Shown here: positions 4,638 to 37,576 of the stretch, in pieces
Layout of the letters: each line of letters opens with the position of its first letter
Numbering within the stretch: position 1 is the stretch's first letter
From: Candidatus Nomurabacteria bacterium
Lineage (GTDB): Bacteria > Patescibacteriota > WWE3 > UBA101185 > UBA10185
DNA: 64,000 nucleotides
Assembly (NCBI GenBank): GCA_020631855.1
Contig: JACKGU010000001.1
Coordinates: 295,601 to 359,600 of the forward strand
Direction: 5' to 3'
Notes under the pieces: model-generated
Databases searched by the model: none
The model's input: the letters and a program-made list of their open reading frames with translations, nothing else
Told to the model about the DNA's origin: nothing
Program-made: the position numbers and the translations under genes

Positions 4638-6722
4638 CTACCTATGACTTGAAATGTTTTCAGCAATGTTTGCGGGAACTTCTTCGTAGTGACTTGGCTC
4701 CATTGTAAAAGATGCTCGTCCTTGAGTCATGCCTCGAAGATCGGTCGCGTAACCAAACATTTCGGCAAGGGGAACCTTAGCTCTTACAACTGTTGCTTTT
4801 CCTCGTGTTTCAGTACCTTCTATCTTTCCTCGCTTTGAAGAAAGATTTCCTATGACATCGCCCATAAACTCATCGGGAGTGATTACTTCAACTTTCATGA
4901 TAGGCTCAAGAAGATAAGGCTTAGCCGCCCTCTGCGCCATTTTAAATGCTTCAGATGCCGCTATCTTGAAGGCTATTTCTGAAGAGTCAACTTCGTGGTA
5001 CGAACCATCAGTAAGTGTAACAGATACGTCTACAACCGGATAACCTGCAACTACCCCTGCCTCTGTAGCTTCTCTTATTCCCTTTTCTACAGCAGGAACG
5101 TATTCTTTGGGTATAGAACCTCCAACAATCTTATCGTGGAACTCTATGCCTTTTCCGGGTTCGAGAGGTGCCACAGTTATTACAACATGCCCGTACTGAC
5201 CGCGACCCCCTGACTGTCTTATATACTTGTTTTCTTTTTCAACTGTATCTTTAATAGATTCTCTGTATGCTACCTGTGGTCTGCCGGTGTTTACTTCAAC
5301 CTTAAATTCTCTTTTCATTCTATCTACAATAATTTCTAAATGAAGCTCGCCCATTCCATATAAAACTGTTTCACCGGTTTCAACGTCAGATTTCACCTTC
5401 AATGTAGGATCTTCTTCTAAGAATTTTTTAAGAGCTACGCCCATCTTATCTCGGTCGGTTTTTGTTTTTGGCTCTATCATGAGCCCTATAACAGGCTCTG
5501 CGAAATCAATTGATTCTAAAACAACAGGCCTGCCTTCGTCACAAAGAGTGTCTCCAGTGGTGGTCTCACTTAATCCCACTGCAGCTGCGATTTCTCCTGC
5601 AGAAATTTCTTTGATTTCTTCACGATGGTTTGCATGCATTAATAAAATTCGGCTTAATCTTTCTTTTTTGTCTTTTGTGGAGTTGTACAAATATGAGCCG
5701 GATGTTATTTTTCCAGAGTAAACTCTGAAGTAAGTGAGTCTTCCAACAAAAGGGTCGGTCTGAATCTTAAATGCAAGGGCTGTAAAAGGCTCATTCTCAT
5801 CTGTAAGTAATGTAACTTCTTGGTTATTTTTTGTGTTTACACAAACTATATCAGGAGTGTCTTGGGGAGAAGGTAAATATGCGGTTACACCATCTAAAAG
5901 CTTTTGAACCCCAACGTTTCCTAGCGCAGATCCGCAGAACACAGGATACAACTTAGCTTTTATTGTTAGTTTTCGAATGCCTGCCTTTATTTCTTCTGGT
6001 GTAAATTCATCTCCATTTAAGAACCTTTCAAGCATTGCATCGTCTGCCTCAGCAACCTTTTCAATTAACATGGCTCTAAACTCTTTTACTTTTTCTTTAT
6101 AATCTTCGGGAATCGGAATCTCAGAAACCTCTTCACCAAATTTTCCTGCAAAAGAATAGGCTTTCTGCTCTACTAAATCTATTACTGAGTGCATGTCATT
6201 TTCTATACCAATTGGAATCTGTACGGGAACTGCATCTTTTGACAAACGATCATGAATCGAGTTAAGAGACATGTAGAAATCGCCGCCAACTTTATCCAAT
6301 TTGTTAATGAAACATAAAAGAGGAACGTGATATTTTTCGGATTGTCGCCAAACTGTTTCACTTTGAGGTTCAACGCCCTGGGATCCGTCAAATACAACTA
6401 CTCCGCCATCCAAAACTCTTAATGATCTTTCAACTTCAGCAGTGAAATCTACGTGCCCCGGAGTATCAATAATATTAATTCTAAAATCACTCCAGAAACA
6501 AGTAGTAGCGGCAGATGTAATAGTTATGCCCCGCTCGCGCTCCTGCGCCATCCAGTCCATTTGTGCGGCGCCTTCGTGAACCTCGCCGATTTTGTGGGAT
6601 CTCCCTGTGTAGTAAAGAACACGCTCGGTTAGGGTTGTTTTACCGGCATCTACGTGGGCAATAATACCTATGTTTCTAATTTTATCTAGGGTATATTTTT
6701 TATCGGCATTTGCTTTGGACAT
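4638..6722 (-). CDS. fusA: Elongation factor G
   Basis: [17 protein letters not shown], full-length EF-G. The ORF-track start at 6728 is a TTG directly after the rpsG stop; the ATG two codons later (6722) is more likely. Confidence 0.97.
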
Positions 6723-15408: not shown

Positions 15409-16041
15409 TTACCGTCCTTCCAAAATTACGTTCTTAAGTTGTTCCGGAGTATCAACAAGAAACTTGGGTGATTTTTTTGCTAAAGTTGCTGAGTCATTAA
15501 AGCCCCAAGTCACCGAGGCAATATCAATTCCTGCTTTTTCGCAAGCTACGATATCCCTAATCTCATCGCCAACATAGAGCGTTTCCTTTTTTCGTAAGTG
15601 CTTTTTTCGAAGCATTTTTTTTATTAATCTATGCTTTTTAAACAATTTACGCCCTGAATAAATGTCTAAAATGCCTGATATTTTGTGCATTTTAAGATAT
15701 GCCGTAACTATTCTCCTGTCATTGCTTGTAAGAATGTAAATTTTATAGCCATGCGACTGCAGCCCTGAAATTATCTCTGCCATTCCTTCAATGAGGGCTA
15801 AGTCGGAAAGATTATTTCGCATCTCTTCGCGAAGCATTTTTACAAAACGAGGTATTTTAAAAACATTTATATTAAATTCGCGGAAGATGTATCGCATAGA
15901 CAAACTCCTCAACTTAGGAATTTCGTTAGCATCAATACCGTCTATACCGTATTTTGAGGGATTAGAATTTACTACCTTTAATAAAAAGTTAAATGAATCG
16001 GCTATAGTACCGTCAAAATCAAAGATTATGTTTTTATACAC
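15409..16041 (-). CDS. HAD-superfamily hydrolase (phosphoglycolate phosphatase-like)
   Basis: FDFDGTIADS motif I, LTSN motif II, GDEIRD motif IV. GTG start preceded by GGAG. Confidence 0.8.
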   Translation of the reverse strand: MYKNIIFDFDGTIADSFNFLLKVVNSNPSKYGIDGIDANEIPKLRSLSMRYIFREFNINVFKIPRFVKMLREEMRNNLSDLALIEGMAEIISGLQSHGYKIYILTSNDRRIVTAYLKMHKISGILDIYSGRKLFKKHRLIKKMLRKKHLRKKETLYVGDEIRDIVACEKAGIDIASVTWGFNDSATLAKKSPKFLVDTPEQLKNVILEGR

Positions 16042-16067
16042 TTTAAAAATTCTCCAATAATATCATC

Positions 16068-16181
16068 AAAACTACCAATCACCGCCAGCTTACGCAGGTG
16101 TTTTGCTGTAATTTCTTTTTGTTGCAAAGCCCAACATGCTGGGTAAGCTACCTCTACTAGCTTACGCAAGCAGCTATAAGT
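16068..16181 (-). ncRNA. Candidate structured small RNA, repeat-family copy A
   Basis: Aligns over its whole length with 30257-30366 and 32796-32904. Conserved TATAAT at 16188-16193 (minus). Three hairpins with compensatory changes. Confidence 0.55.
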
Positions 16182-16196
16182 AACAAAATTATAAAA

Positions 16197-18755
16197 TTAA
16201 GCGTCTTTGCCGTGGCATTTCTTGTATTTTTTACCGCTCCCGCAAGGACAAGGATCATTTCTACCAATCTTATCTACAGATTTAGTAGTTGGGGCTTTTG
16301 TACTTTTATTTTTTAACTTTGCTTCGTCTTCGACACCGCTATTTAGCTCTCCCTGCTCATAAACGGCCGACTGCAACTCACTCTTTAGTTTGCTTTCTAA
16401 TCTATTTTCTACGCTACGAACTTGCTCAGGAGCTCTTTTTATTTCTTTTAACCTCAGCAGTCTCTCGCTAATACCCGAGTATATACTATCAACCAGCATA
16501 TCAAATCTGGTGTGACCTTCTCGTTTATATTCAACAATAGGATCTTTTTGCGCGTAACCTCTGAGCCCAATTCCATCTCGTAAGTTGTCCATATCTACCA
16601 AATGCTCCATCCATAGCATATCAACAACTTCCACACTCAGCTGTGCAACAACCTGGGCCCATATTTCTTCACCTAGCTCTTTGCTATAATAATCCCAACG
16701 CTCCGAAACCTCAGAAGAAAGTTTTTCCAAAAACCAATCTTTGTGTGTCAAATCTTTGGACCCAATTTCAAGAATTCTACGCCTCAGTTTATACACTACT
16801 TCCCTATGCACATTCATAACATCGTCCATTTCAACGACCTGTTTTCGTCTGTCGAAGTTAAAGTTTTCAACTTTCTTTTGCGCGTTTTCGATAGCCTTAG
16901 ACACTATACCGGCTTCTAAAGGAACCGAATCATCTATGCCAAAGCGGTTCATCAACCTTTCTACCTGGGCGCCTCCGAAAACGCGCATCAGGTCATCCTG
17001 CAACGAAACATAAAACCTCGAAGAGCCGGGGTCGCCCTGTCGACCGGAGCGACCTCTCAACTGATTATCAATTCTTCTAGACTCATGTCTTTCGGTTCCA
17101 ATAACATGCAGGCCTCCAAGCTCCCTGATTTCAGCTTGTTCTTCTTCAGTCGACGGATCTCCACCTAATATAATGTCCACACCTCGGCCCGCCATATTAG
17201 TTGAAATAGTTACAGCACCTTTTTTACCCGCTTGAGCAACAATTAATGCCTCACGTTCGTGATTCTTTGCGTTTAATATCTCGTGTGGAATTTTTCTTCG
17301 TTGTAAGAAATTATGTAGAAGTTCGCTTTTTTCAACCGTTGTTGTACCAACAAGAACCGGCTGACCTTTTTCATGTAGTTTTGCTATTTCATCGGCCACG
17401 GCCTTAAATTTTCCTGCCTCTGTTTTGTACACCACATCGTTATAGTCAATTCTAGCTACAGGCATGTGGGTAGGAATTACAACTACTTCAAGTTTATAGA
17501 TTTTAAACAACTCCTCGGCCTCAGTCACCGCAGTACCGGTCATGCCGGCCAGCTTTGAATACATTCTAAAATAATTTTGATAAGAAATCTCAGCTACTGT
17601 TTTGCTTTCTTGCTGTATTTGAACATTTTCTTTAGCTTCAATTGCCTGATGCAATCCTTGAGAGAATCTATTCGAGGGCAAAAGTCTGCCGGTAAATTGA
17701 TCTACAATTACAACCTGGCCGTCTTTCACAACATAATCTCTGTCTTTCTCATACAAGGCGTGTGCGCTCAAAGACTGCTCTATCAAATGAACCATCTCGA
17801 AATCTTGTTCATAAAGATTATCTATTTTTAGTAAATTCTCAACTCTCCTTATACCAAAATCTGTTAGCGAGGCGTTTCTAAATTTTTCTTCTACTTCATA
17901 GTCAGTATTTTTTTCTAGCTGATCTATAATTCTGTTCGCCTGCATGTAACGTTCAGTGGGTTGAGCTGAAGAAGTGGAAATTATTAAAGGCGTTCTAGCT
18001 ACATCAATTAAAATTGAATCTACTTCATCAACAATAGCAAAATTATGGCTCCCCCAATCACCGTTTGGATTGGTCTGTACGGTTTGATCAAGTGTAAGTA
18101 CCATGTTATCTCTTAAGTAATCGAAGCCGAATTCGTGGTTAGTACCATAAGTTATATCTGCACGGTAGGCATCAGCCTTGCTGATCTCGCGCAGATGCTT
18201 TGTATACTCATCTTGAAACTCGGAACTAACAAACTCAGGATCGAAAATAAACGCTCGTTGCTGCATAATTACACCCGTCTTCAGTCCAAGATAATCGTAC
18301 ACTCCGCCCATCCATCCGGCCCCGTGTTTTGAAAGATAATCGTTAGGCGTTACGAGATGAGCACCCTTACCTGTTAGTGCATTAAGATACAAGGGTAAAA
18401 CGGCCGTAAGAGTCTTACCTTCGCCGGTCTTCTGTTCCGCTACCTTGCCTTGGTGCAAAGCAATGCCGGCCAACATTTGCACATCATGAATTCTGATTGT
18501 CTTATTCTCATCGCTCAAAACCCTTCTTGCCGCCTCTCTTACTAATGCGAAAGCTTCCGGCAAAATTGAATCCATATACCTTGAGGCTTCCTTGTCATCC
18601 ATTTTGGATAGAGCCTCTTTCCAAAAAGCCGTCTTTTGTAAAAAAGCAGGTCGGTCTAACCTCTCGAATTCAGGTTCAAAAGAACTGATCTTACTCAGTA
18701 TGGGGGCTTGCTTGGCAAGCAATTTTGAATTTGTATCGAAAAATTTTTTAAACAT
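16197..18755 (-). CDS. secA: Preprotein translocase ATPase SecA
   Basis: 852 aa, DEAD-like motor motifs, C-terminal zinc motif [14 protein letters not shown]. Confidence 0.98.
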
Positions 18756-22164: not shown

Positions 22165-22204
22165 AATTTATTCCTAAAATATAAATAACTACTAACCGGG
22201 GATT

Positions 22205-22405
22205 GAGAATAAAAAACCCCCTGGTTTTACCCAAGAGGCTCAATACTAATGTATTGAAGGTGCCAGCCTTCTTCATACTTATTAACAGCTATAACGGGCA
22301 TTCCCGACTTGGCATTTCCTCCAAGCAGCTCCGTGATTGGAAAATTCACATCAAAGCTTTTTTAGTTTTTTTATACAAACAAACTCAATTATTTGTTAGT
22401 CTGTG
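22205..22405 (-). promoter_or_regulatory. T-box riboswitch leader of serS
   Basis: Antiterminator AGGC-[UGGCACC bulge]-UCAAUAC-AUUA-GUAUUGA-GCCU is mutually exclusive with the terminator. F-box-like CCGUUA at 22292-22297. Confidence 0.7.
22208..22240 (-). terminator. T-box expression-platform terminator
   Basis: AGCCUCUUGG-GUAAAA-CCAGGGGGUU overlapping a U6 tract, about 40 nt upstream of the serS ATG. Confidence 0.7.
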
Positions 22406-22411
22406 TTCGTA

Positions 22412-22440
22412 AATATAACAATTAAGTGGTCGAGATTCAA
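22412..22440 (-). promoter_or_regulatory. Promoter TTGAAT-17-(TGT)TATATT driving the T-box leader
   Basis: Hexamers, 17-nt spacer and extended TGn read on the minus strand. Confidence 0.55.
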
Positions 22441-29459: not shown

Positions 29460-30215
29460 ATGGGAAAATTTAAAAAGAAGGTTTACCACAAAAAATATAC
29501 TAATGATCAGATCTATAACAACGTAAATCTGGGATTTACCTTAAAAAGCTCTGCGGTCCCACTTGTACTTACAGTTACGGCATGCGCCATATTTGCAACC
29601 CAAGTACTTTACCCGCTTATAAATTTTACGACCCAAGATCTTACGTCCGTCGCCGCTCAACACACAGCTTTAGCAAAAATATCAGGTTTTCGCGAGTTTC
29701 AATACTCAGAGTTACAAAGAAATGTACTAGGCTCAACAAATAATAGCGAACAGGTACAGGAGAAGTTTTATATTTCGATTCCAAAACTTAATATTGAAAA
29801 CGCTGAGGTAGAGACAAACTCTTCGAACCTAAATCCTGAAACCGCTCTTGGCCATTATCTGGGCTCAGCCTTACCGGGGCAAAATGGCACAGCGTTTGTG
29901 TACGGACACTCTGTGCTGCCTTTCTTTTACAACCCAAAAAACTATAAAACTATATTTTCAACCCTGGGAGATCTAGAAAAAGGAGATTTGATATATGTCA
30001 TATACGGCAATAGATCTTATACATACGAGGTAGAAGGGCAGAGAGAGCTTAAACCGGAAGAGGTTAATCCTATTGAGAACATAAAACCTGAATATCTACG
30101 AAAATCGTCCTTAGTTCTTATGACCTGCTCACCGCCGGGAACAAAGCTTAAAAGGCTACTTATAGACTCTGTTCTAATAAACACATCGATAATACAACAG
30201 AATTCAATAGAATAG
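29460..30215 (+). CDS. Sortase-family transpeptidase
   Basis: N-terminal TM, catalytic His in VYGHS, Cys in LVLMTCSPPG (TLxTC type), downstream Arg (KLKRLL). Confidence 0.85.
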   Translation: MGKFKKKVYHKKYTNDQIYNNVNLGFTLKSSAVPLVLTVTACAIFATQVLYPLINFTTQDLTSVAAQHTALAKISGFREFQYSELQRNVLGSTNNSEQVQEKFYISIPKLNIENAEVETNSSNLNPETALGHYLGSALPGQNGTAFVYGHSVLPFFYNPKNYKTIFSTLGDLEKGDLIYVIYGNRSYTYEVEGQRELKPEEVNPIENIKPEYLRKSSLVLMTCSPPGTKLKRLLIDSVLINTSIIQQNSIE

Positions 30216-30256: not shown

Positions 30257-30366
30257 AAAATCATCCGCCACCAGCTTACGCGGGTGGTTTGCTGTAATTT
30301 CTTTGCGTTGCAAACCCAACATGTTGGGTAAACTATACCTACTAGCTTAAGCAAGTAGTTTTAAGT
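30257..30366 (-). ncRNA. Candidate structured small RNA, repeat-family copy B
   Basis: About 89 percent identical to copy C by eye. TATAAT at 30373-30378. Preceded by a terminator. Confidence 0.55.
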
Positions 30367-30378
30367 AATGAGATTATA

Positions 30379-30413
30379 AACAAGAATACAGAAATACGCC
30401 TCATGGGCGTATT
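30379..30413 (-). terminator. Terminator of the VPVTG-protein operon
   Basis: AAUACGCC-CAUGA-GGCGUAUU followed by U-rich UCUGUAUUCUUGUUU. Confidence 0.5.
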
Positions 30414-30459
30414 CCTAAAATGTTCTATAATTATAGTGCTCTGGGCTCAACGCAGATAC

Positions 30460-31246: not shown

Positions 31247-31828
31247 TCAATTAATATAGTAAATAGCAAATGTAACTATAAGAGTATCCTTTCCGGAATT
31301 GGGATTGGAATCTACATCCGCCCGTGCACTAACCACTGCGTATACTCTTTTTGAGACACTCAGGTCCTGCAGAAATTTAGGCAAAGCAGAAATATCTCCT
31401 GTTAACTTAGCAGAATAGAGCTCAGAGTATTCAACATAATCCGACTTCGTCACACTGGAATCATTGGAGGATGTCCCCTTGACTTCATCAAGCGACAGTC
31501 CGTTAATCCTTGCTATCTGTGATAGTTCAAAAATCATACCATCGTAGTCCTTTTCAACGGGAACTCCATTCATAATAATTTCAGTTTTTAAATTTCTTAC
31601 TAAATAAGGCTCGAGCAGAGCTACACGATTTATATTGTTTTTTATAATAGTTCCTTGCTCCGAAAACTCTTTAACGAGATCTTTCTTATATTTATAGGCG
31701 GAATAACCCCTAACGGCACCGAAATATCCCACAACAACTACATTAAAAGCTAAAAAGCACAGAAACAAAACAAAATTTCTGTAAGGTCGGCTTTGTATTT
31801 CTCGATCATAATAATTATTCAACTTCAT
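31247..31828 (-). CDS. Bitopic membrane protein, PilO-like topology
   Basis: Short cytoplasmic N-terminus, one TM, coiled segment, then an alpha/beta C-domain. 4-nt overlap with the upstream gene. The assignment is tentative. Confidence 0.4.
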   Translation of the reverse strand: MKLNNYYDREIQSRPYRNFVLFLCFLAFNVVVVGYFGAVRGYSAYKYKKDLVKEFSEQGTIIKNNINRVALLEPYLVRNLKTEIIMNGVPVEKDYDGMIFELSQIARINGLSLDEVKGTSSNDSSVTKSDYVEYSELYSAKLTGDISALPKFLQDLSVSKRVYAVVSARADVDSNPNSGKDTLIVTFAIYYIN

Positions 31829-32466
31829 TTGTATGTAACCTCTATCGAAATATCATACGAGCCCCCGCGATTTAAGCCTGCGTACAATAAACTGATTGAT
31901 TCTATATCTTTGTTTGAAAAAAGATTAGACATATAGATAGAAGCGTTTATCGGCTCGGAAACAACAATGTTTAGGTTTGCTTTATCAGTATCAAATGACG
32001 TGCTAGAGTAAAAACCCTTCGGCACATCCGTATTCATTACTTCTGCGTGTCTGCTGATCAGACTTCTTTTTGACTCTATAGATTTGTAAGTAGCTATACG
32101 ATCATTTACTTTAGTAACATCGGCAATAATATCTTTTCTGCTGCTGAAAGTATCTGACAAGTCTTCGACTTCTATTACAAGCTGCTCAAGCTGTCGGTTA
32201 ACTGAAAAGTTAAGCAGAAGGATAATCAAATATATTACCTGAATAAAAATGATTAAATAAACTATTATCCTCGGGGTAGAGTCGGGAATACTAATACTTT
32301 TTTCTTGAAATAAGTTTGGGGTATAAATAGGCTCAGTTGCCTCTAGCGGCTCATTTAGTGGCTGGTTTAGTCTTTGCTTTAGATTTTGAAGCTTTTTCTT
32401 TGCTGGCAGTAGAAACTTTAGTTTCTTTTTCAGCTGTATTTTTTTCTTTTTCTGGACCTTGGGCAT
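31825..32466 (-). CDS. Bitopic membrane protein, PilN-like topology, Lys-rich N-terminus
   Basis: One TM (IIVYLIIFIQVIYLIILLL), coiled coil, C-domain. The ATG at 32466 lies inside the rpsT tail. The assignment is tentative. Confidence 0.4.
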   Translation of the reverse strand: MPKVQKKKKIQLKKKLKFLLPAKKKLQNLKQRLNQPLNEPLEATEPIYTPNLFQEKSISIPDSTPRIIVYLIIFIQVIYLIILLLNFSVNRQLEQLVIEVEDLSDTFSSRKDIIADVTKVNDRIATYKSIESKRSLISRHAEVMNTDVPKGFYSSTSFDTDKANLNIVVSEPINASIYMSNLFSNKDIESISLLYAGLNRGGSYDISIEVTYK

Positions 32467-32728
32467 TGGCAGATACTTTCTTTGAAATCTTTGATTTTAT
32501 TCTGGCAGCCTTGTTCTTATGAATAACGTTATTTTTTGCAGCTTTATCTACTACTTTATACAATACTCTTTCCTGCTCTTTGATTATATCAAGTTCTTTT
32601 GTATTTGTAGAAAGCAATTTTTCTATTGCCTTCACAGAAGCCTTAATCTTGGTTTTCCAGAATATGTTATGAAGTCTTTTCTTCGCAGAAGATCTGACGG
32701 CTTTTTTTGCTGACTGTGTATTTGCCAT
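32351..32728 (-). CDS. rpsT: 30S ribosomal protein S20 with a ~40-aa Lys-rich C-terminal extension
   Basis: MANTQSAKKAVRSSAKKR...VIHKNKAARIKSKISKK is the S20 core. The frame stays open to the TGA at 32351. Confidence 0.88.
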   Translation of the reverse strand: MANTQSAKKAVRSSAKKRLHNIFWKTKIKASVKAIEKLLSTNTKELDIIKEQERVLYKVVDKAAKNNVIHKNKAARIKSKISKKVSANAQGPEKEKNTAEKETKVSTASKEKASKSKAKTKPATK

Positions 32729-32739
32729 ACTGCGGTAGT

Positions 32740-32767
32740 ATGATAACACAGTAGCACAATTTGACAA
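32740..32767 (-). promoter_or_regulatory. rpsT promoter TTGTCA-16-(TGT)TATCAT, 11 nt from the ATG
   Basis: Read on the minus strand. No SD. Confidence 0.5.
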
Positions 32768-32795
32768 TACTTTGTTATACTAGGACCCCATAACT

Positions 32796-32904
32796 GATCA
32801 ACCACCACCAGCTGACGCAGGTGATTTGCTGTAATTTCTTTGCGCTGTAAAGCCCAACATGTTGGGCAAACTACATTTACTAGCTTACGCAAGTAGTTTT
32901 AAGT
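32796..32904 (-). ncRNA. Candidate structured small RNA, repeat-family copy C
   Basis: TATAAT at 32911-32916. Hairpins AAACUAC/GUAGUUU, GCCCAAC/GUUGGGC and CACC/GGUG. Lies upstream of a separate rpsT promoter. Confidence 0.6.
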
Positions 32905-33009
32905 AACGAAATTATATAAGATAGCAAAAATTAAGACGGTGCTTAAATAATCGGCTGTGTACACAGGCCGTAATTTTTGCTAAAAAGAAACATACATAGA
33001 TACAAAAAA

Positions 33010-34671
33010 ATGAAAAAGTTTTACAAAAACATAACCAATAAAATAAAAATTCGCGGAAGATGGAGCTTTATAGCCAAGGCGCAAAAAACTATACTTTCGG
33101 CAGCATTCGTGATCGCACTCTTTGCAGGCCTTTCTTCCATACTGGGCTTTGTCAAAGGGAGAATGCTAATTAACTTTTTCGGAGTTAGCGACGAGCTGGG
33201 TATCTTTTACGCCGCAGACAGAGTGCCCAACATGGTGTACTCAATAATAGTTGCCGGAGCTATATCCACTATATTCATTCCTGTATTCACCGATTTATTA
33301 AAAAAAGACAAAAAGGAGGCGTGGAAAACAGCCTCGAACGTCATTAACATTACACTGATTTCTTTCCTTTTTTTAGGGGGATTTCTGGTAATTTTTGCTT
33401 ATCCTGTCATGAATCTTTTATCCCTGGGCGAATTAACGCCGGAACAACTTAAGCTAGGGGCGGGCTTAATGAGAATAATGGTAGGATCACAGTTAATTTT
33501 AATTTTGAGCAGCCTGCTCTCAAGTATTCTCCAATCACATAAGTTCTTTTTAGTCCCAGCTGCAGCTCCAGTACTTTACAATGTGGGCATGATCGTCGGC
33601 TTGATTGCTCTATCCGGAAAATATGGGATATATGCTCCGGCGCTGGGCACAGTAGTTGGAGCCGCACTCCATTTGCTAATTCAGATACCTTTATTAAAAA
33701 AGACAAGCTTCTCCTATGTTGTAAGTAAAACATTGCTAAACAAAGAGACACGAAAAATTTTTTCACTTGTACCGCCTAGAATTGCGAGTGTGGTTCTAAC
33801 ACAGCTCTCCATTGTGGTCAACAACTCTCTTGCCATACTTATATCTCCTGCCTCGGTAGTTATCTTAAAATCCGCAAGCCAAGTTCAGTTTTTACCTGTA
33901 AACATTTTTGGGGCTTCTATGGCTTTAGCCTCGCTCCCCGTTCTTGCGGAACATGCGGATACAAGCGAGCACGACAAGTTTAAACGAATTTTTATAACCA
34001 CCTTACACCAAACCGCATACCTAGTACTTCCTTTTAGCGCCCTGATGCTTGTTCTAAGAGTTCCCATAGTGAGGATTGTTTATGGGGTTGCCAACTTTCC
34101 GTGGGAGGCCACGATAGAGACAGCCTTAACGCTTGGATTTTTCAGCTTATCAATATTTTCTCAAAGCGTAGTGTACCTGTTTACCAGAGCTTTTTATGCT
34201 CTAAAAGACACTACCACTCCTGTCACAGTGAGTTTGCTCACCATTATTATAAATACAACTCTTTCAGTATTTTTTGTACATTTTTTAAGATTGGGGGTGT
34301 GGTCTCTCGCAATGTCTTACACAATTACCAGCCTTCTGGACTCTATCTTACTTTTCTACAAACTGGATAGAAAATTAAACGGATTTATATTATCCGAGGT
34401 TTTAGTTCCTTTAATAAAGATATCGACCGCCTCCGCTATGATGGGTGTTTTCGTTTACGTGCCAATGAAAATACTTGATCTGTACGTTCTTGATACGTCC
34501 AGAACAATTCAACTTATCATAACCACAGGCACGTCTGCAGCGTCAGGGCTAGGGATCTACCTACTTCTTACTAAACTACTAAAAGTAGAGGAAGTGAATC
34601 TATTCTATAAACTGATACTCAAAATTAAACCGAAAAAAACTTTTCAAGAAGTAGTTTCAGAAGAACAGTAA
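33010..34671 (+). CDS. murJ: Lipid II flippase MurJ (MviN family)
   Basis: Polytopic, with an MviN-type N-terminus (ILGFVKGRMLINFFG..). The start is ATG 33010 or TTG 32977. Confidence 0.88.
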   Translation: MKKFYKNITNKIKIRGRWSFIAKAQKTILSAAFVIALFAGLSSILGFVKGRMLINFFGVSDELGIFYAADRVPNMVYSIIVAGAISTIFIPVFTDLLKKDKKEAWKTASNVINITLISFLFLGGFLVIFAYPVMNLLSLGELTPEQLKLGAGLMRIMVGSQLILILSSLLSSILQSHKFFLVPAAAPVLYNVGMIVGLIALSGKYGIYAPALGTVVGAALHLLIQIPLLKKTSFSYVVSKTLLNKETRKIFSLVPPRIASVVLTQLSIVVNNSLAILISPASVVILKSASQVQFLPVNIFGASMALASLPVLAEHADTSEHDKFKRIFITTLHQTAYLVLPFSALMLVLRVPIVRIVYGVANFPWEATIETALTLGFFSLSIFSQSVVYLFTRAFYALKDTTTPVTVSLLTIIINTTLSVFFVHFLRLGVWSLAMSYTITSLLDSILLFYKLDRKLNGFILSEVLVPLIKISTASAMMGVFVYVPMKILDLYVLDTSRTIQLIITTGTSAASGLGIYLLLTKLLKVEEVNLFYKLILKIKPKKTFQEVVSEEQ

Positions 34672-34730
34672 TTATCTTTTCAATACAGAGAGGGGTTGTA
34701 GTTTTAGATCAAGAATTATAAAGTACTTTT

Positions 34731-36542
34731 GTGAACCATACAGCCAATATTAGAAATTTTAGTATTATTGCCCACATTGATCACGGCAAGTCTACCTTGG
34801 CGGATCGCTTGCTGGATATAACCGGCACTATAGAAAAAAGACAACTCAAAGATCAAACGTTAGACAGCATGGAGCTTGAAAGAGAAAAGGGTATAACAAT
34901 AAAGCTAAAGGCCGTTCGCATGAACTATACCCTCGATTCAATTGAATATCAGCTTAATCTCATTGATACGCCCGGACATGTGGACTTTTCCTATGAAGTT
35001 TCACGCTCTCTGGCTGCTTGTGAGGGCGCTGTTTTAGTTGTAGATGCTACACAAGGAATTCAGGCACAAACCGTTTCAAATGTTTATAAAGCTATAGATG
35101 CTAACCTAACAATCATTCCGGTCATAAATAAGGTAGATTTGGCAGGAAGTAATGTGGAAAAAACGGCCCAAGATTTAGTGGATACTTTTGGTTTTAAACA
35201 CGATGAAATTTTGCAAATCTCGGCAAAAACCGGCCTCGGGATTGAACGGCTACTTTCCGAAATTATTAAGAGAGTTCCTGCACCAAAAGATACCTATGAC
35301 AAGAATTTTCGAGGATTAATATTTGATACATATTACGATGAGTTCTTGGGCGTCATCGCGCTTATTAAGGTCGAGGACGGAAAAATTGAACTCCAGGATG
35401 TGAAAAACCATAGAAAAATATACTTAATGGCAACCAAAGCAGAGTCTGATCCTGAAAGTATAGGAATAATGGTTCCCCACCGCAAAGAAGTGGGATCTTT
35501 ATCTGCGGGGGAGGTTGGCTTCATCTCGACAGGCGTCAAAGATATAAAAACGGTCCGAGTAGGCGACACGGTTACTTTTAAAGATATCGCCTCCGCAACA
35601 CAGCAACTGGAGGGATACAAAGAAGTTAAACCCTTCGTATTCATGTCCATCTACCCAATTGAAAACGATAAATACCCTGAATTAAAAGACGCTTTAGAGA
35701 AGCTGTCTTTATCAGATTCTGCCCTTCAATACACCGCCGAAAGTAACTCCGCTCTAGGATTCGGATATCGTTGCGGTTTTTTAGGACTTCTTCACGCTGA
35801 CATAGTGCAGGAAAGGCTTGAAAGAGAATACAATCTGGAACTGATATCGACTACCCCTAGCGTAGAATATACCGCAACACTAACCACAGGGGAAACCGTA
35901 AAAGTGAAAAACCCATCAGAAATGCCCGAGCCCACTAGAATACAGAGTGTGCAAGAGCCGTGGATTATTTTACATATTTTTTCGCCGGCAACATACACAG
36001 GAGGGATAATTACCCTATGTGAAAGTCGGAGGGGCATTATGAGAAAAATGGAATACCCTACACAAGACACGATTATGTTTGAATACGAACTGCCTCTATC
36101 TGAACTTGTAAATAATTTTTTCGATGAACTCAAAACAATATCTTCCGGATATGCATCAATTGATTACGACTTTCTGGAATACAGAAATGTAAAAGTAATA
36201 AAAATGGACATTCTGGTACACGGAGCTGAGGTTGAGCCTTTGGCACAAATAGTTCTAAAAGATAACGCCCAAGCAATCGGCAAAAAAATAATAAACAGAC
36301 TAAAAGATGTAATACCACGACAACAGTTTGCAGTCGCTGTTCAAGCCGCCATAGGCGGAAAAATCATAGCTCGCGAGACCATACCGGCCATGAGAAAAGA
36401 TGTTCTATCGGGCATATATGGAGGCCACAGAGAAAGAAAAGATAAGTTATTAGAAAGACAAAAAAAAGGTAAAAAAAGAATGAAGAGACTAGGAAAAGTT
36501 GATATTCCGCAAGAAGCCTTTAGACAAGTTCTAAGTAATTGA
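34731..36542 (+). CDS. lepA: Elongation factor 4 (LepA)
   Basis: [25 protein letters not shown], and a conserved LepA C-terminal domain. Confidence 0.97.
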   Translation: MNHTANIRNFSIIAHIDHGKSTLADRLLDITGTIEKRQLKDQTLDSMELEREKGITIKLKAVRMNYTLDSIEYQLNLIDTPGHVDFSYEVSRSLAACEGAVLVVDATQGIQAQTVSNVYKAIDANLTIIPVINKVDLAGSNVEKTAQDLVDTFGFKHDEILQISAKTGLGIERLLSEIIKRVPAPKDTYDKNFRGLIFDTYYDEFLGVIALIKVEDGKIELQDVKNHRKIYLMATKAESDPESIGIMVPHRKEVGSLSAGEVGFISTGVKDIKTVRVGDTVTFKDIASATQQLEGYKEVKPFVFMSIYPIENDKYPELKDALEKLSLSDSALQYTAESNSALGFGYRCGFLGLLHADIVQERLEREYNLELISTTPSVEYTATLTTGETVKVKNPSEMPEPTRIQSVQEPWIILHIFSPATYTGGIITLCESRRGIMRKMEYPTQDTIMFEYELPLSELVNNFFDELKTISSGYASIDYDFLEYRNVKVIKMDILVHGAEVEPLAQIVLKDNAQAIGKKIINRLKDVIPRQQFAVAVQAAIGGKIIARETIPAMRKDVLSGIYGGHRERKDKLLERQKKGKKRMKRLGKVDIPQEAFRQVLSN

Positions 36543-37540: not shown

Positions 37541-37576
37541 TTGACACTCTTAGCACTCATGATAATATAGTGACAA
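37541..37576 (+). promoter_or_regulatory. hrcA promoter (TTGACA-16-TGATAATAT) overlapping a half-degenerate CIRCE operator
   Basis: TTAGCACTC (37550-37558) - N9 - TAGTGACAA (37568-37576), against the CIRCE consensus TTAGCACTC-N9-GAGTGCTAA. Confidence 0.6.

What the first reader, a model, noticed from the sequence alone, without database searches (positions are those of the whole stretch)
32796..32916. Copy C of the RNA candidate sits in tandem with, and is separate from, the rpsT promoter
Minus-strand order in the murJ/rpsT divergent region is as follows. First the conserved TATAAT (32911-32916), then the conserved ~110-nt body (to about 32796). About 30 nt further on comes a distinct TTGTCA-16-TGTTATCAT promoter (32740-32767), whose -10 ends 11 nt from the rpsT ATG. 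Two tandem promoters argue that the element is not simply the rpsT 5' UTR. Copy C has the cleanest hairpins (AAACUAC/GUAGUUU; GCCCAAC/GUUGGGC; CACC/GGUG). None of the three copies ends in a strong U-tract, so 3'-end formation is unclear.
Basis: partly seen in the sequence, partly recalled or inferred. Interest (0 to 1): 0.55.

Follow-up and report, generated by a model that had tools for sequence, protein, structure and literature searches.

The report
Dispersed 120-nt hairpin repeat near rpsT
The sequence upstream of the ribosomal protein S20 gene is one copy of a 120-base repeat scattered through this uncultured bacterium's genome; it looks more like a small decayed mobile element than a regulatory RNA gene, so it is fairly ordinary.

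Summary
Copy C (32916..32797, minus strand) is a discrete 120-nt repeat unit. It starts with TATAAT and lies upstream of a separate rpsT promoter, TTGTCA-16-TGTTATCAT, whose -10 ends 11 nt before the ATG. I found five copies in about 105 kb of this Patescibacteria genome, 74-87% identical, with unrelated flanks. A relative that lacks the element keeps the same rpsT promoter. Three downstream genes have their own extended -10 promoter between the element and the gene. The idea of a structured RNA gene with its own promoter is not supported. There is one compensatory pair in 33, and only two of five copies fold better than shuffled sequence. None has a terminator. The TATAAT lacks the TGn that marks this genome's promoters, and one copy reads TGTAGT. 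The anatomy is two near-identical imperfect hairpins in direct orientation, 20 nt from the left end and 9-10 nt from the right. There are no terminal inverted repeats and no target duplication. This fits a transposase-less IS200/IS605-type element (PATE). No transposase was found and mobility is unproven. Rfam has no match.

The parts
32797..32916 (-). Copy C of the repeat, a complete unit of 120 nt
   Evidence: BLAST against the window; nhmmer; sharp boundaries, since the flanks are unrelated between copies.
32911..32916 (-). TATAAT at the left end of the element. It has no TGn and no -35 box. It can also pair with GAAATTA at 32838..32832.
   Evidence: It is conserved in 4 of 5 copies; copy D has TGTAGT.
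32877..32900 (-). Left hairpin module AAAA-CTACTTGC-GTAA-GCTAGTAA, an imperfect palindrome with a T.T mismatch. Its foot is 20 nt from the left end.
32852..32867 (-). Central palindrome GCCCAACATGTTGGGC. The 3' half is invariant in all copies. The 5' half has decayed without compensation in copies D and E.
32825..32841 (-). AAAGAAATTACAGCAAA, a 17-nt run invariant in all five copies, just 5' of the right hairpin
   Evidence: column permutation gives p = 0.007; no complementary target sites elsewhere in the window.
32806..32827 (-). Right hairpin module AAAT-CACCTGC-GTCA-GCTGGTG, a direct repeat of the left module (19 of 22 identical in the consensus)
32797..32805 (-). Right tail GTGGTTGAT, 9 nt from the hairpin foot to the end of homology
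32740..32767 (-). The rpsT gene's own promoter: -35 TTGTCA, 16-nt spacer, extended -10 TGTTATCAT. It ends 11 nt before the ATG, so the mRNA is nearly leaderless.
   Evidence: The same arrangement occurs in relative L123, which lacks the element.
32351..32728 (-). rpsT (ribosomal protein S20, 125 aa)
   Evidence: Pfam PF01649.
30260..30378 (-). Copy B. It lies after the 204-aa ORF and a terminator-like hairpin (30417..30389), convergent with the sortase gene that ends at 30215.
16074..16193 (-). Copy A. Its TATAAT starts 3 nt after the secA stop codon (16199..16197). It is followed by TGATATTAT (16065..16057) and the HAD hydrolase GTG at 16041.
33010..34671 (+). murJ, the divergent neighbour

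Best explanation
Copy C is one member of a lineage-specific family of dispersed 120-bp intergenic repeats. The element's architecture is that of a non-autonomous IS200/IS605-type element, a palindrome-associated transposable element (PATE).

Shown: it carries two near-identical imperfect hairpins on the same strand. One is about 20 nt from the left end and the other 9-10 nt from the right end. It has no terminal inverted repeats, causes no target duplication and has no coding capacity.

Inferred: a Y1 (HUH) transposase supplied in trans once recognised the two hairpins in single-stranded DNA and moved the unit into intergenic gaps. The copies now look old (74-87% identical) and fixed. Copy C landed between murJ and the pre-existing, nearly leaderless rpsT promoter. 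Any transcription of it is probably incidental. The TATAAT at its left end may be a relic of the parent element's promoter.
For: 1. Five copies with sharp boundaries and unrelated flanks, all in intergenic DNA. They abut a stop codon (A), a tRNA 3' end (D) and a terminator hairpin (B).
2. The 22-nt hairpin module is repeated in direct orientation: AAAACTACTTGCGTAAGCTAGT and AAAAC-ACCTGCGTAAGCTGGT, 19 of 22 identical, p < 2e-4. A T.T mismatch is kept in most copies.
3. The end distances are asymmetric, 20 nt on the left and 9-10 nt on the right. In IS608 they are 19 and 10 nt (PMC3201880). PATEs are described as having the longer distance at the 5' end and similar near-terminal palindromes, up to a 22-bp exact duplication (PMC3119063).
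4. There are no terminal inverted repeats and no flank duplication.
5. The orthologous sites of copies A, B and C hold no element in syntenic relatives.
6. Nothing points to selection on RNA structure. One compensatory pair occurs among 33, and 124 of 500 shuffles do as well. Folding z-scores are about 0 for three copies. By my count about 14 changes disrupt pairing and 8 preserve it.
7. Indels of 1 and 2 nt break every reading frame.
8. All three window copies share one orientation.
Against: No Y1 transposase or TnpB gene occurs in the roughly 105 kb available from this organism. No insertion polymorphism was seen among near-identical strains. The left flank shares only TT, not a clear 4-5-nt target. 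The 17-nt invariant run (p = 0.007) suggests constraint beyond neutral decay. Only five copies are known, and the full genome could not be scanned. Candidate phyla radiation (CPR) genomes are small and, to my knowledge, usually poor in repeats.
Confidence: 0.45

Rival explanations
1. The copies form a family of paralogous small RNA genes. Each would be transcribed from its own -10-only promoter (TATAAT). The invariant single-stranded AAAGAAAUUACAGCAAA would act as a seed or a protein-binding site, and the 3' ends would be made by processing.
For: A perfect TATAAT sits exactly at the 5' boundary in 4 of 5 copies. Copy B is preceded by a terminator-like hairpin, so it would need its own start. 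There is a 17-nt invariant run predicted to be unpaired. Several stem changes are G.U-compatible only on this strand. Copy D could be made by co-transcription with tRNA-Val.
Against: No copy has TGn or a -35 box, whereas 16 of 28 upstream regions in this genome carry TGnTAnnnT. No terminator or U-tract follows the element. There is no covariation. Stability and minimum-free-energy structures differ between copies. GNRA loops are lost in 4 of 10 hairpins. The window holds no complementary targets. There is no Rfam match.
Confidence: 0.25
2. The element is a cis-acting RNA in the 5' UTR or intergenic part of the mRNAs of the downstream genes (rpsT, HAD hydrolase, GH1, clpC), for example a leader, a processing site or a stabiliser.
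For: Four of five copies are co-oriented with a downstream gene that starts 25-70 nt away. Copy D has no promoter between it and the GH1 gene.
Against: Copies A, C and E are followed by a typical extended -10 promoter, so the main transcript excludes the element. Copy B has no downstream gene on its strand. The downstream genes are functionally unrelated. Relatives have rpsT without the element. There is no covariation.
Confidence: 0.07
3. The element works as double-stranded DNA. It would be a cassette of protein-binding palindromes: two operator-like sites 71-72 bp apart plus the central 16-bp palindrome, bound by a regulator or a nucleoid protein.
For: Primary sequence is conserved rather than pairing. 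The two palindromes are spaced 71-72 bp apart in all three window copies. Copy C has a perfect 16-bp palindrome.
Against: Conservation extends over the whole 120 bp, not only the palindromes. The left half of the central palindrome decays freely. Copy B faces no promoter. No candidate regulator is linked to any copy.
Confidence: 0.08
4. The element encodes a micro-protein, either MLGFATKRNYSKTPA or the 36-53-aa RKLV..CWALQ..KEITA frame that one gene caller annotated.
For: ATG..TAA is intact in copies A and E. A 47-aa ORF is called in one JGI contig.
Against: A 1-nt indel in B and a 2-nt indel in E shift both frames. The stop codon is lost in C and D. Changes fall mainly at first codon positions. 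There is no Shine-Dalgarno sequence. The protein database holds only that single called ORF.
Confidence: 0.02

Closest known systems
PATEs, the transposase-less derivatives of IS200/IS605 (IS605-type) elements (Haloquadratum HqIRS families, PMC3119063), and the IS608 ends (PMC3201880)
   Same: No terminal inverted repeats and no target duplication. Two similar near-terminal imperfect palindromes on one strand. The distance to the end is longer on the left (20 nt here, 19 nt in IS608) than on the right (9-10 nt here, 10 nt in IS608). [quoted passage not shown] Intergenic, with a single orientation in the window.
   Different: No cognate IS or Y1/TnpB gene was found. No clear 4-5-nt target next to the left end. 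No sequence similarity to any described element was tested or shown. The host is a CPR bacterium. The copies are old and show no polymorphism.
REP/BIME elements mobilised by RAYT (TnpA-REP) (PMC3333891)
   Same: Short intergenic imperfect palindromes with a stem mismatch, often just downstream of genes.
   Different: REPs carry a conserved GTAG 5' of the hairpin foot and pair up in inverse orientation. Here both hairpins are preceded by AAAAC and lie in direct orientation inside a fixed 120-bp unit.
Classical bacterial MITE-like intergenic repeats (Correia, ERIC, RUP, BOX); comparison from general knowledge
   Same: Repeats of about 100-150 bp in intergenic DNA that can carry promoter-like hexamers and fold when transcribed.
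   Different: Correia and RUP elements have terminal inverted repeats and target duplications. This element has neither.
Multicopy sRNA families (csRNA, LhrC, Qrr) and IS200-derived sRNAs; comparison from general knowledge
   Same: Several paralogous units of about 100 nt, each with hairpins and a conserved unpaired stretch.
   Different: Those families have recognisable promoters or regulator sites and intrinsic terminators. Neither is present here.

Membership tests
PATE / IS200-IS605-type ends | No terminal inverted repeats | tested here: met
   The inverted-repeat search on copies A, B and C finds only internal hairpins, and no terminal pair shared between copies.
PATE / IS200-IS605-type ends | Near-terminal imperfect palindromes of similar sequence at both ends, on the same strand | tested here: met
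   The 22-nt module is repeated in direct orientation, 19 of 22 identical, p < 2e-4. All 6 hairpin cores in the window lie inside the copies. A T.T mismatch is kept in most copies.
PATE / IS200-IS605-type ends | The hairpin lies farther from the left end than from the right end (IS608: 19 nt and 10 nt) | tested here: met
   20 nt on the left and 9-10 nt on the right. The boundaries are known only to about 2 nt.
PATE / IS200-IS605-type ends | No target-site duplication | tested here: met
   The flanks of the five copies show no direct repeat and no similarity to each other.
PATE / IS200-IS605-type ends | A conserved 4-5-nt target oligonucleotide abutting the left end | tested here: inconclusive
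   The flanks end in TCTTA, TGTT, ATTT, CCTT and AATT. Only TT is shared, and it may belong to the element itself.
PATE / IS200-IS605-type ends | A cognate autonomous IS (Y1 TnpA and/or TnpB) with related palindromes in the genome or lineage | tested here: inconclusive
   None occurs in about 105 kb of this organism.
PATE / IS200-IS605-type ends | Evidence of mobility: occupied and empty sites | tested here: inconclusive
   The orthologous sites hold no element in relatives at 54-69% protein identity. A strain 99.98% identical to the window has the same copy A, and six contigs carry an identical copy C.
REP/BIME (RAYT) | A conserved GTAG 5' of the hairpin foot; REP and iREP in inverse orientation | tested here: not met
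   Both hairpins are preceded by AAAAC and lie in direct orientation.
Classical MITE | Terminal inverted repeats plus target-site duplication | tested here: not met
Independent sRNA gene | A promoter of the type this genome uses | tested here: not met
   TGnTAnnnT occurs in 16 of 28 upstream regions against 3.7 in shuffles. The element's TATAAT has no TGn and no -35 box in any copy. Copy D has TGTAGT.
Independent sRNA gene | An intrinsic terminator or other defined 3' end | tested here: not met
   No terminator-like site follows window copies A, B or C. The sequences after the element in D and E show no U-tract either.
Independent sRNA gene / structured RNA | Conserved secondary structure supported by covariation | tested here: inconclusive
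   82-84% of cells pair, but only 0-1 compensatory pairs occur and shuffles match the observed score. Folding z-scores are -2.2, -2.2, +0.2, +0.1 and 0.0. Five sequences give little power.
rpsT (S20) leader | Lies inside the rpsT transcript and is conserved upstream of rpsT in relatives | tested here: not met
   A conserved proximal promoter lies downstream of the element. L123 has the same promoter, a 50-nt spacer and no element.
Any Rfam 15 family | A covariance-model hit | tested here: not met
   There are no gathering-score hits in the window. Searches at E <= 10 on copies C, A and E give only different noise hits.
Integron attC | RYYYAAC and GTTRRRY at opposite termini of one long imperfect hairpin | tested here: not met
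   GCCCAAC and GTTGGGC are adjacent in the centre of the element, not at its ends. The attC consensus is recalled from memory.

The most novel reading that the evidence does not exclude
The repeats are expressed, functional RNAs in a CPR bacterium. They could be a family of five or more trans-acting sRNAs with an invariant 17-nt seed. Alternatively they could be orphan omega-RNA-like transcripts left by an IS605-type element, which would read out into the flanking DNA and could guide a TnpB-like nuclease.
Probability: 0.2. Interest if true: 0.55.

Novelty: new member of a known kind. Interest (0 to 1): 0.3.

Why it matters
If the reading is right, this reduced Patescibacteria genome carries relics of single-strand (HUH) transposition inserted among essential genes such as secA, rpoB, rpsT and clpC. 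This bears on mobile DNA in CPR bacteria. It would also stop the repeat from being annotated as a regulatory RNA or as a small protein; one pipeline already calls a 47-aa ORF inside it. It has no bearing on rpsT regulation, because rpsT keeps its own conserved, nearly leaderless promoter.

Tried and rejected
All were chance matches in unrelated taxa, and none extended beyond about 25 nt. That scan was wasted.
2. The metagenome scan with a 21-nt pattern gave two true new copies (D and E) and five chance hits.
3. Viral-contig scans with two patterns gave only unrelated coding repeats.
4. The micro-protein readings were rejected because of frame-shifting indels. A protein-database search with the translated frame returned only the one ORF already called in copy A.
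5. The sRNA seed-target search found no complementary sites beyond the copies themselves.
6. Extended homology between the flanks of B and C (the shared TATTGTCA) is not significant.
7. A diversity-generating retroelement TR/VR pair was rejected, because the differences are not adenine-specific (38 transitions, 23 transversions) and the copies are intergenic.
8. attC, REP/BIME and classical MITE readings fail their defining features (see the membership tests).
9. Walking along the 629,590-bp contig was not possible. Extending the window by 10 kb on each side gave no further copy.

Full report
**Observation.**
- TATAAT is at 32916..32911, and the conserved body runs to 32797.
- TTGTCA (32767..32762), a 16-nt spacer and TGTTATCAT (32748..32740) follow. 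Then come 11 nt and the rpsT ATG at 32728.
- The promoter scan reports this proximal site at 10 of 12 matches with TG. It reports nothing at the upstream TATAAT and no terminator after the element.
- The repeat is real. Copy C matches 30378..30260 (copy B, 87.5%, E 1.6e-37) and 16196..16067 (copy A, 84%, E 2.4e-35).

**Organism and further copies.** The window comes from an uncultured Patescibacteria (CPR) bacterium. NCBI labels it 'Candidatus Nomurabacteria'. Its nearest MurJ and SecA homologues are only 58% and 69% identical and include WWE3 bacteria.
- A metagenome pattern scan found two more copies on other contigs of the same sample, with the same coverage of about 5x.
- Copy D (L124, 9479..9366, minus strand) starts 6 nt after tRNA-Val and lies about 30 nt before a GH1 glycosidase gene.
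- Copy E (L128, 6306..6188, minus strand) lies between polA and clpC.
- Extending the window by 10 kb on each side gave no more copies.
- That makes five copies in about 105 kb, 74-87% identical to one another.
- Sequence outside the roughly 120-nt unit is unrelated between copies, so the unit is discrete.

**It is not an rpsT leader.** Two syntenic relatives keep the order sortase, four small genes, rpsT, murJ.
- In L123 the divergent spacer between murJ and rpsT is 50 nt. It contains TGTTATGAT, then 10 nt, then the ATG, and no element.
- The sites of copies B and A hold no element in relatives.
- Extended -10 promoters (TGnTAnnnT) are the rule in this genome. They occur in 16 of 28 upstream regions, against 3.7 in shuffles.
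- Such a promoter lies between the element and the downstream gene in copy A (TGATATTAT), copy C (TGTTATCAT) and copy E (TGCTAATAT).

**The TATAAT as a promoter, and the element as a structured RNA.** Neither idea gains support.
- None of the five copies has TGn or a -35 box.
- Copy D has TGTAGT. Both of its changes would preserve pairing with the invariant GAAAUUACA, which hints that the hexamer need not be a promoter.
- No Rfam family matches.
- On the five-copy alignment, two hand-built structures pair 82-84% of cells. They show only 0-1 compensatory pairs, and 124 of 500 shuffles do as well.
- By my count, about 14 changes disrupt pairing and 8 preserve it. This is near the neutral expectation.
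- Folding z-scores are -2.2 (C), -2.2 (B), +0.2 (A), +0.1 (D) and 0.0 (E). The minimum-free-energy structures differ between copies.
- Both possible small ORFs are broken by a 1-nt indel in B and a 2-nt indel in E.
- One signal argues against pure neutrality: a 17-nt invariant run, AAAGAAATTACAGCAAA (p = 0.007). It has no complementary targets elsewhere in the window.

**Anatomy.** The element contains a 22-nt module repeated in direct orientation. The two versions are AAAACTACTTGCGTAAGCTAGT and AAAAC-ACCTGCGTAAGCTGGT, 19 of 22 identical, p < 2e-4.
- Each module is an imperfect hairpin with a T.T mismatch.
- The left hairpin foot is 20 nt from the left end. The right hairpin foot is 9-10 nt from the right end.
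- There are no terminal inverted repeats and no target duplication.

**Comparison with known elements.** This anatomy matches the published description of PATEs, the transposase-less relatives of IS605-type elements.
- PATEs have no inverted terminal repeats and cause no target duplication. They carry similar near-terminal palindromes and have the longer distance at the 5' end (PMC3119063).
- IS608 has its cleavage sites 19 nt 5' of the left hairpin and 10 nt 3' of the right hairpin (PMC3201880).
- REP/BIME elements require a GTAG 5' of the hairpin foot and an inverse orientation (PMC3333891). Neither is met here.

**Caveats.**
- No Y1 or TnpB gene occurs in the sequence I could reach.
- The left flanks share only TT.
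- Near-identical strains show no polymorphism.
- The genome-contig scan was wasted on chance matches.

**Verdict.**
- Best reading: a PATE-like dispersed repeat (confidence 0.45).
- Main rival: a multicopy sRNA family (confidence 0.25).
- Novelty: a new member of a known kind.
- Interest: 0.3.

Noticed in passing
window 22233..22363 (-), with the leader spanning about 22165..22420: serS has a leader of about 230 nt. It gives a sub-threshold T-box hit (RF00230, 37.5 bits against a gathering score of 93, E 4.9e-7 on 331 nt). A terminator-like AAAACCAGGGGGTTTTTT follows. This is probably a divergent T-box riboswitch that the gathering-score scan missed.
   Followed up: partly
window-wide; examples at 32740..32748 (rpsT), 16057..16065 (HAD hydrolase) and L128 upstream of 6135 (clpC): Promoters in this genome are of the extended -10 type, TGnTAnnnT (16 of 28 upstream regions against 3.7 in shuffles). 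Many end 6-11 nt before the start codon, which implies leaderless or nearly leaderless mRNAs for secA, hrcA, rpsT, clpC and a lon-like gene.
   Followed up: partly
window about 32700..36000: Genes switch from the minus strand (1..32.7 kb) to the plus strand (33 kb onward) at the rpsT/murJ spacer. Cumulative GC skew reaches its minimum at about 33-36 kb. This may mark a replication origin, or it may only reflect gene orientation. No dnaA gene was seen.
   Followed up: no
window 32955..32966: A perfect 12-bp palindrome, CTGTGTACACAG (within GGCCTGTGTACACAGCC), lies between copy C and murJ. It could be an operator or a hairpin for murJ.
   Followed up: no
window 37550..37576 (+): The hrcA promoter (TTGACA ... 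TGATAATAT) overlaps a CIRCE-like site. The left half, TTAGCACTC, is exact; the full CIRCE consensus is matched with 3 mismatches.
   Followed up: partly
L128 about 6150..6165 (-): The palindrome CACTTGCGCAAGTG overlaps the -35 region of the clpC promoter, about 24 nt after copy E. Its arms resemble the element's hairpin arms.
   Followed up: no
window 32351..32728 (-) and 31825..32466 (-): S20 is 125 aa long and has a Lys/Ala-rich C-terminal extension. The next ORF, if started at its first ATG, overlaps that extension. Gene callers start it later, giving 134 aa.
   Followed up: no
L155 12587..12730, equal to window about 16026..16169 (-): One pipeline calls a 47-aa 'protein' inside copy A that overlaps the HAD hydrolase start. 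It is almost certainly spurious, and it is the only such ORF in the 5.8-billion-protein collection.
   Followed up: yes
window 30260..30378 read on the + strand: Read on the opposite strand, each hairpin module is followed by a T-rich run (GTTTTAAG and ATTTGCTGTAATTTCTTT). Copy B could therefore act as a terminator for the convergent sortase gene. The terminator scan did not flag it.
   Followed up: no
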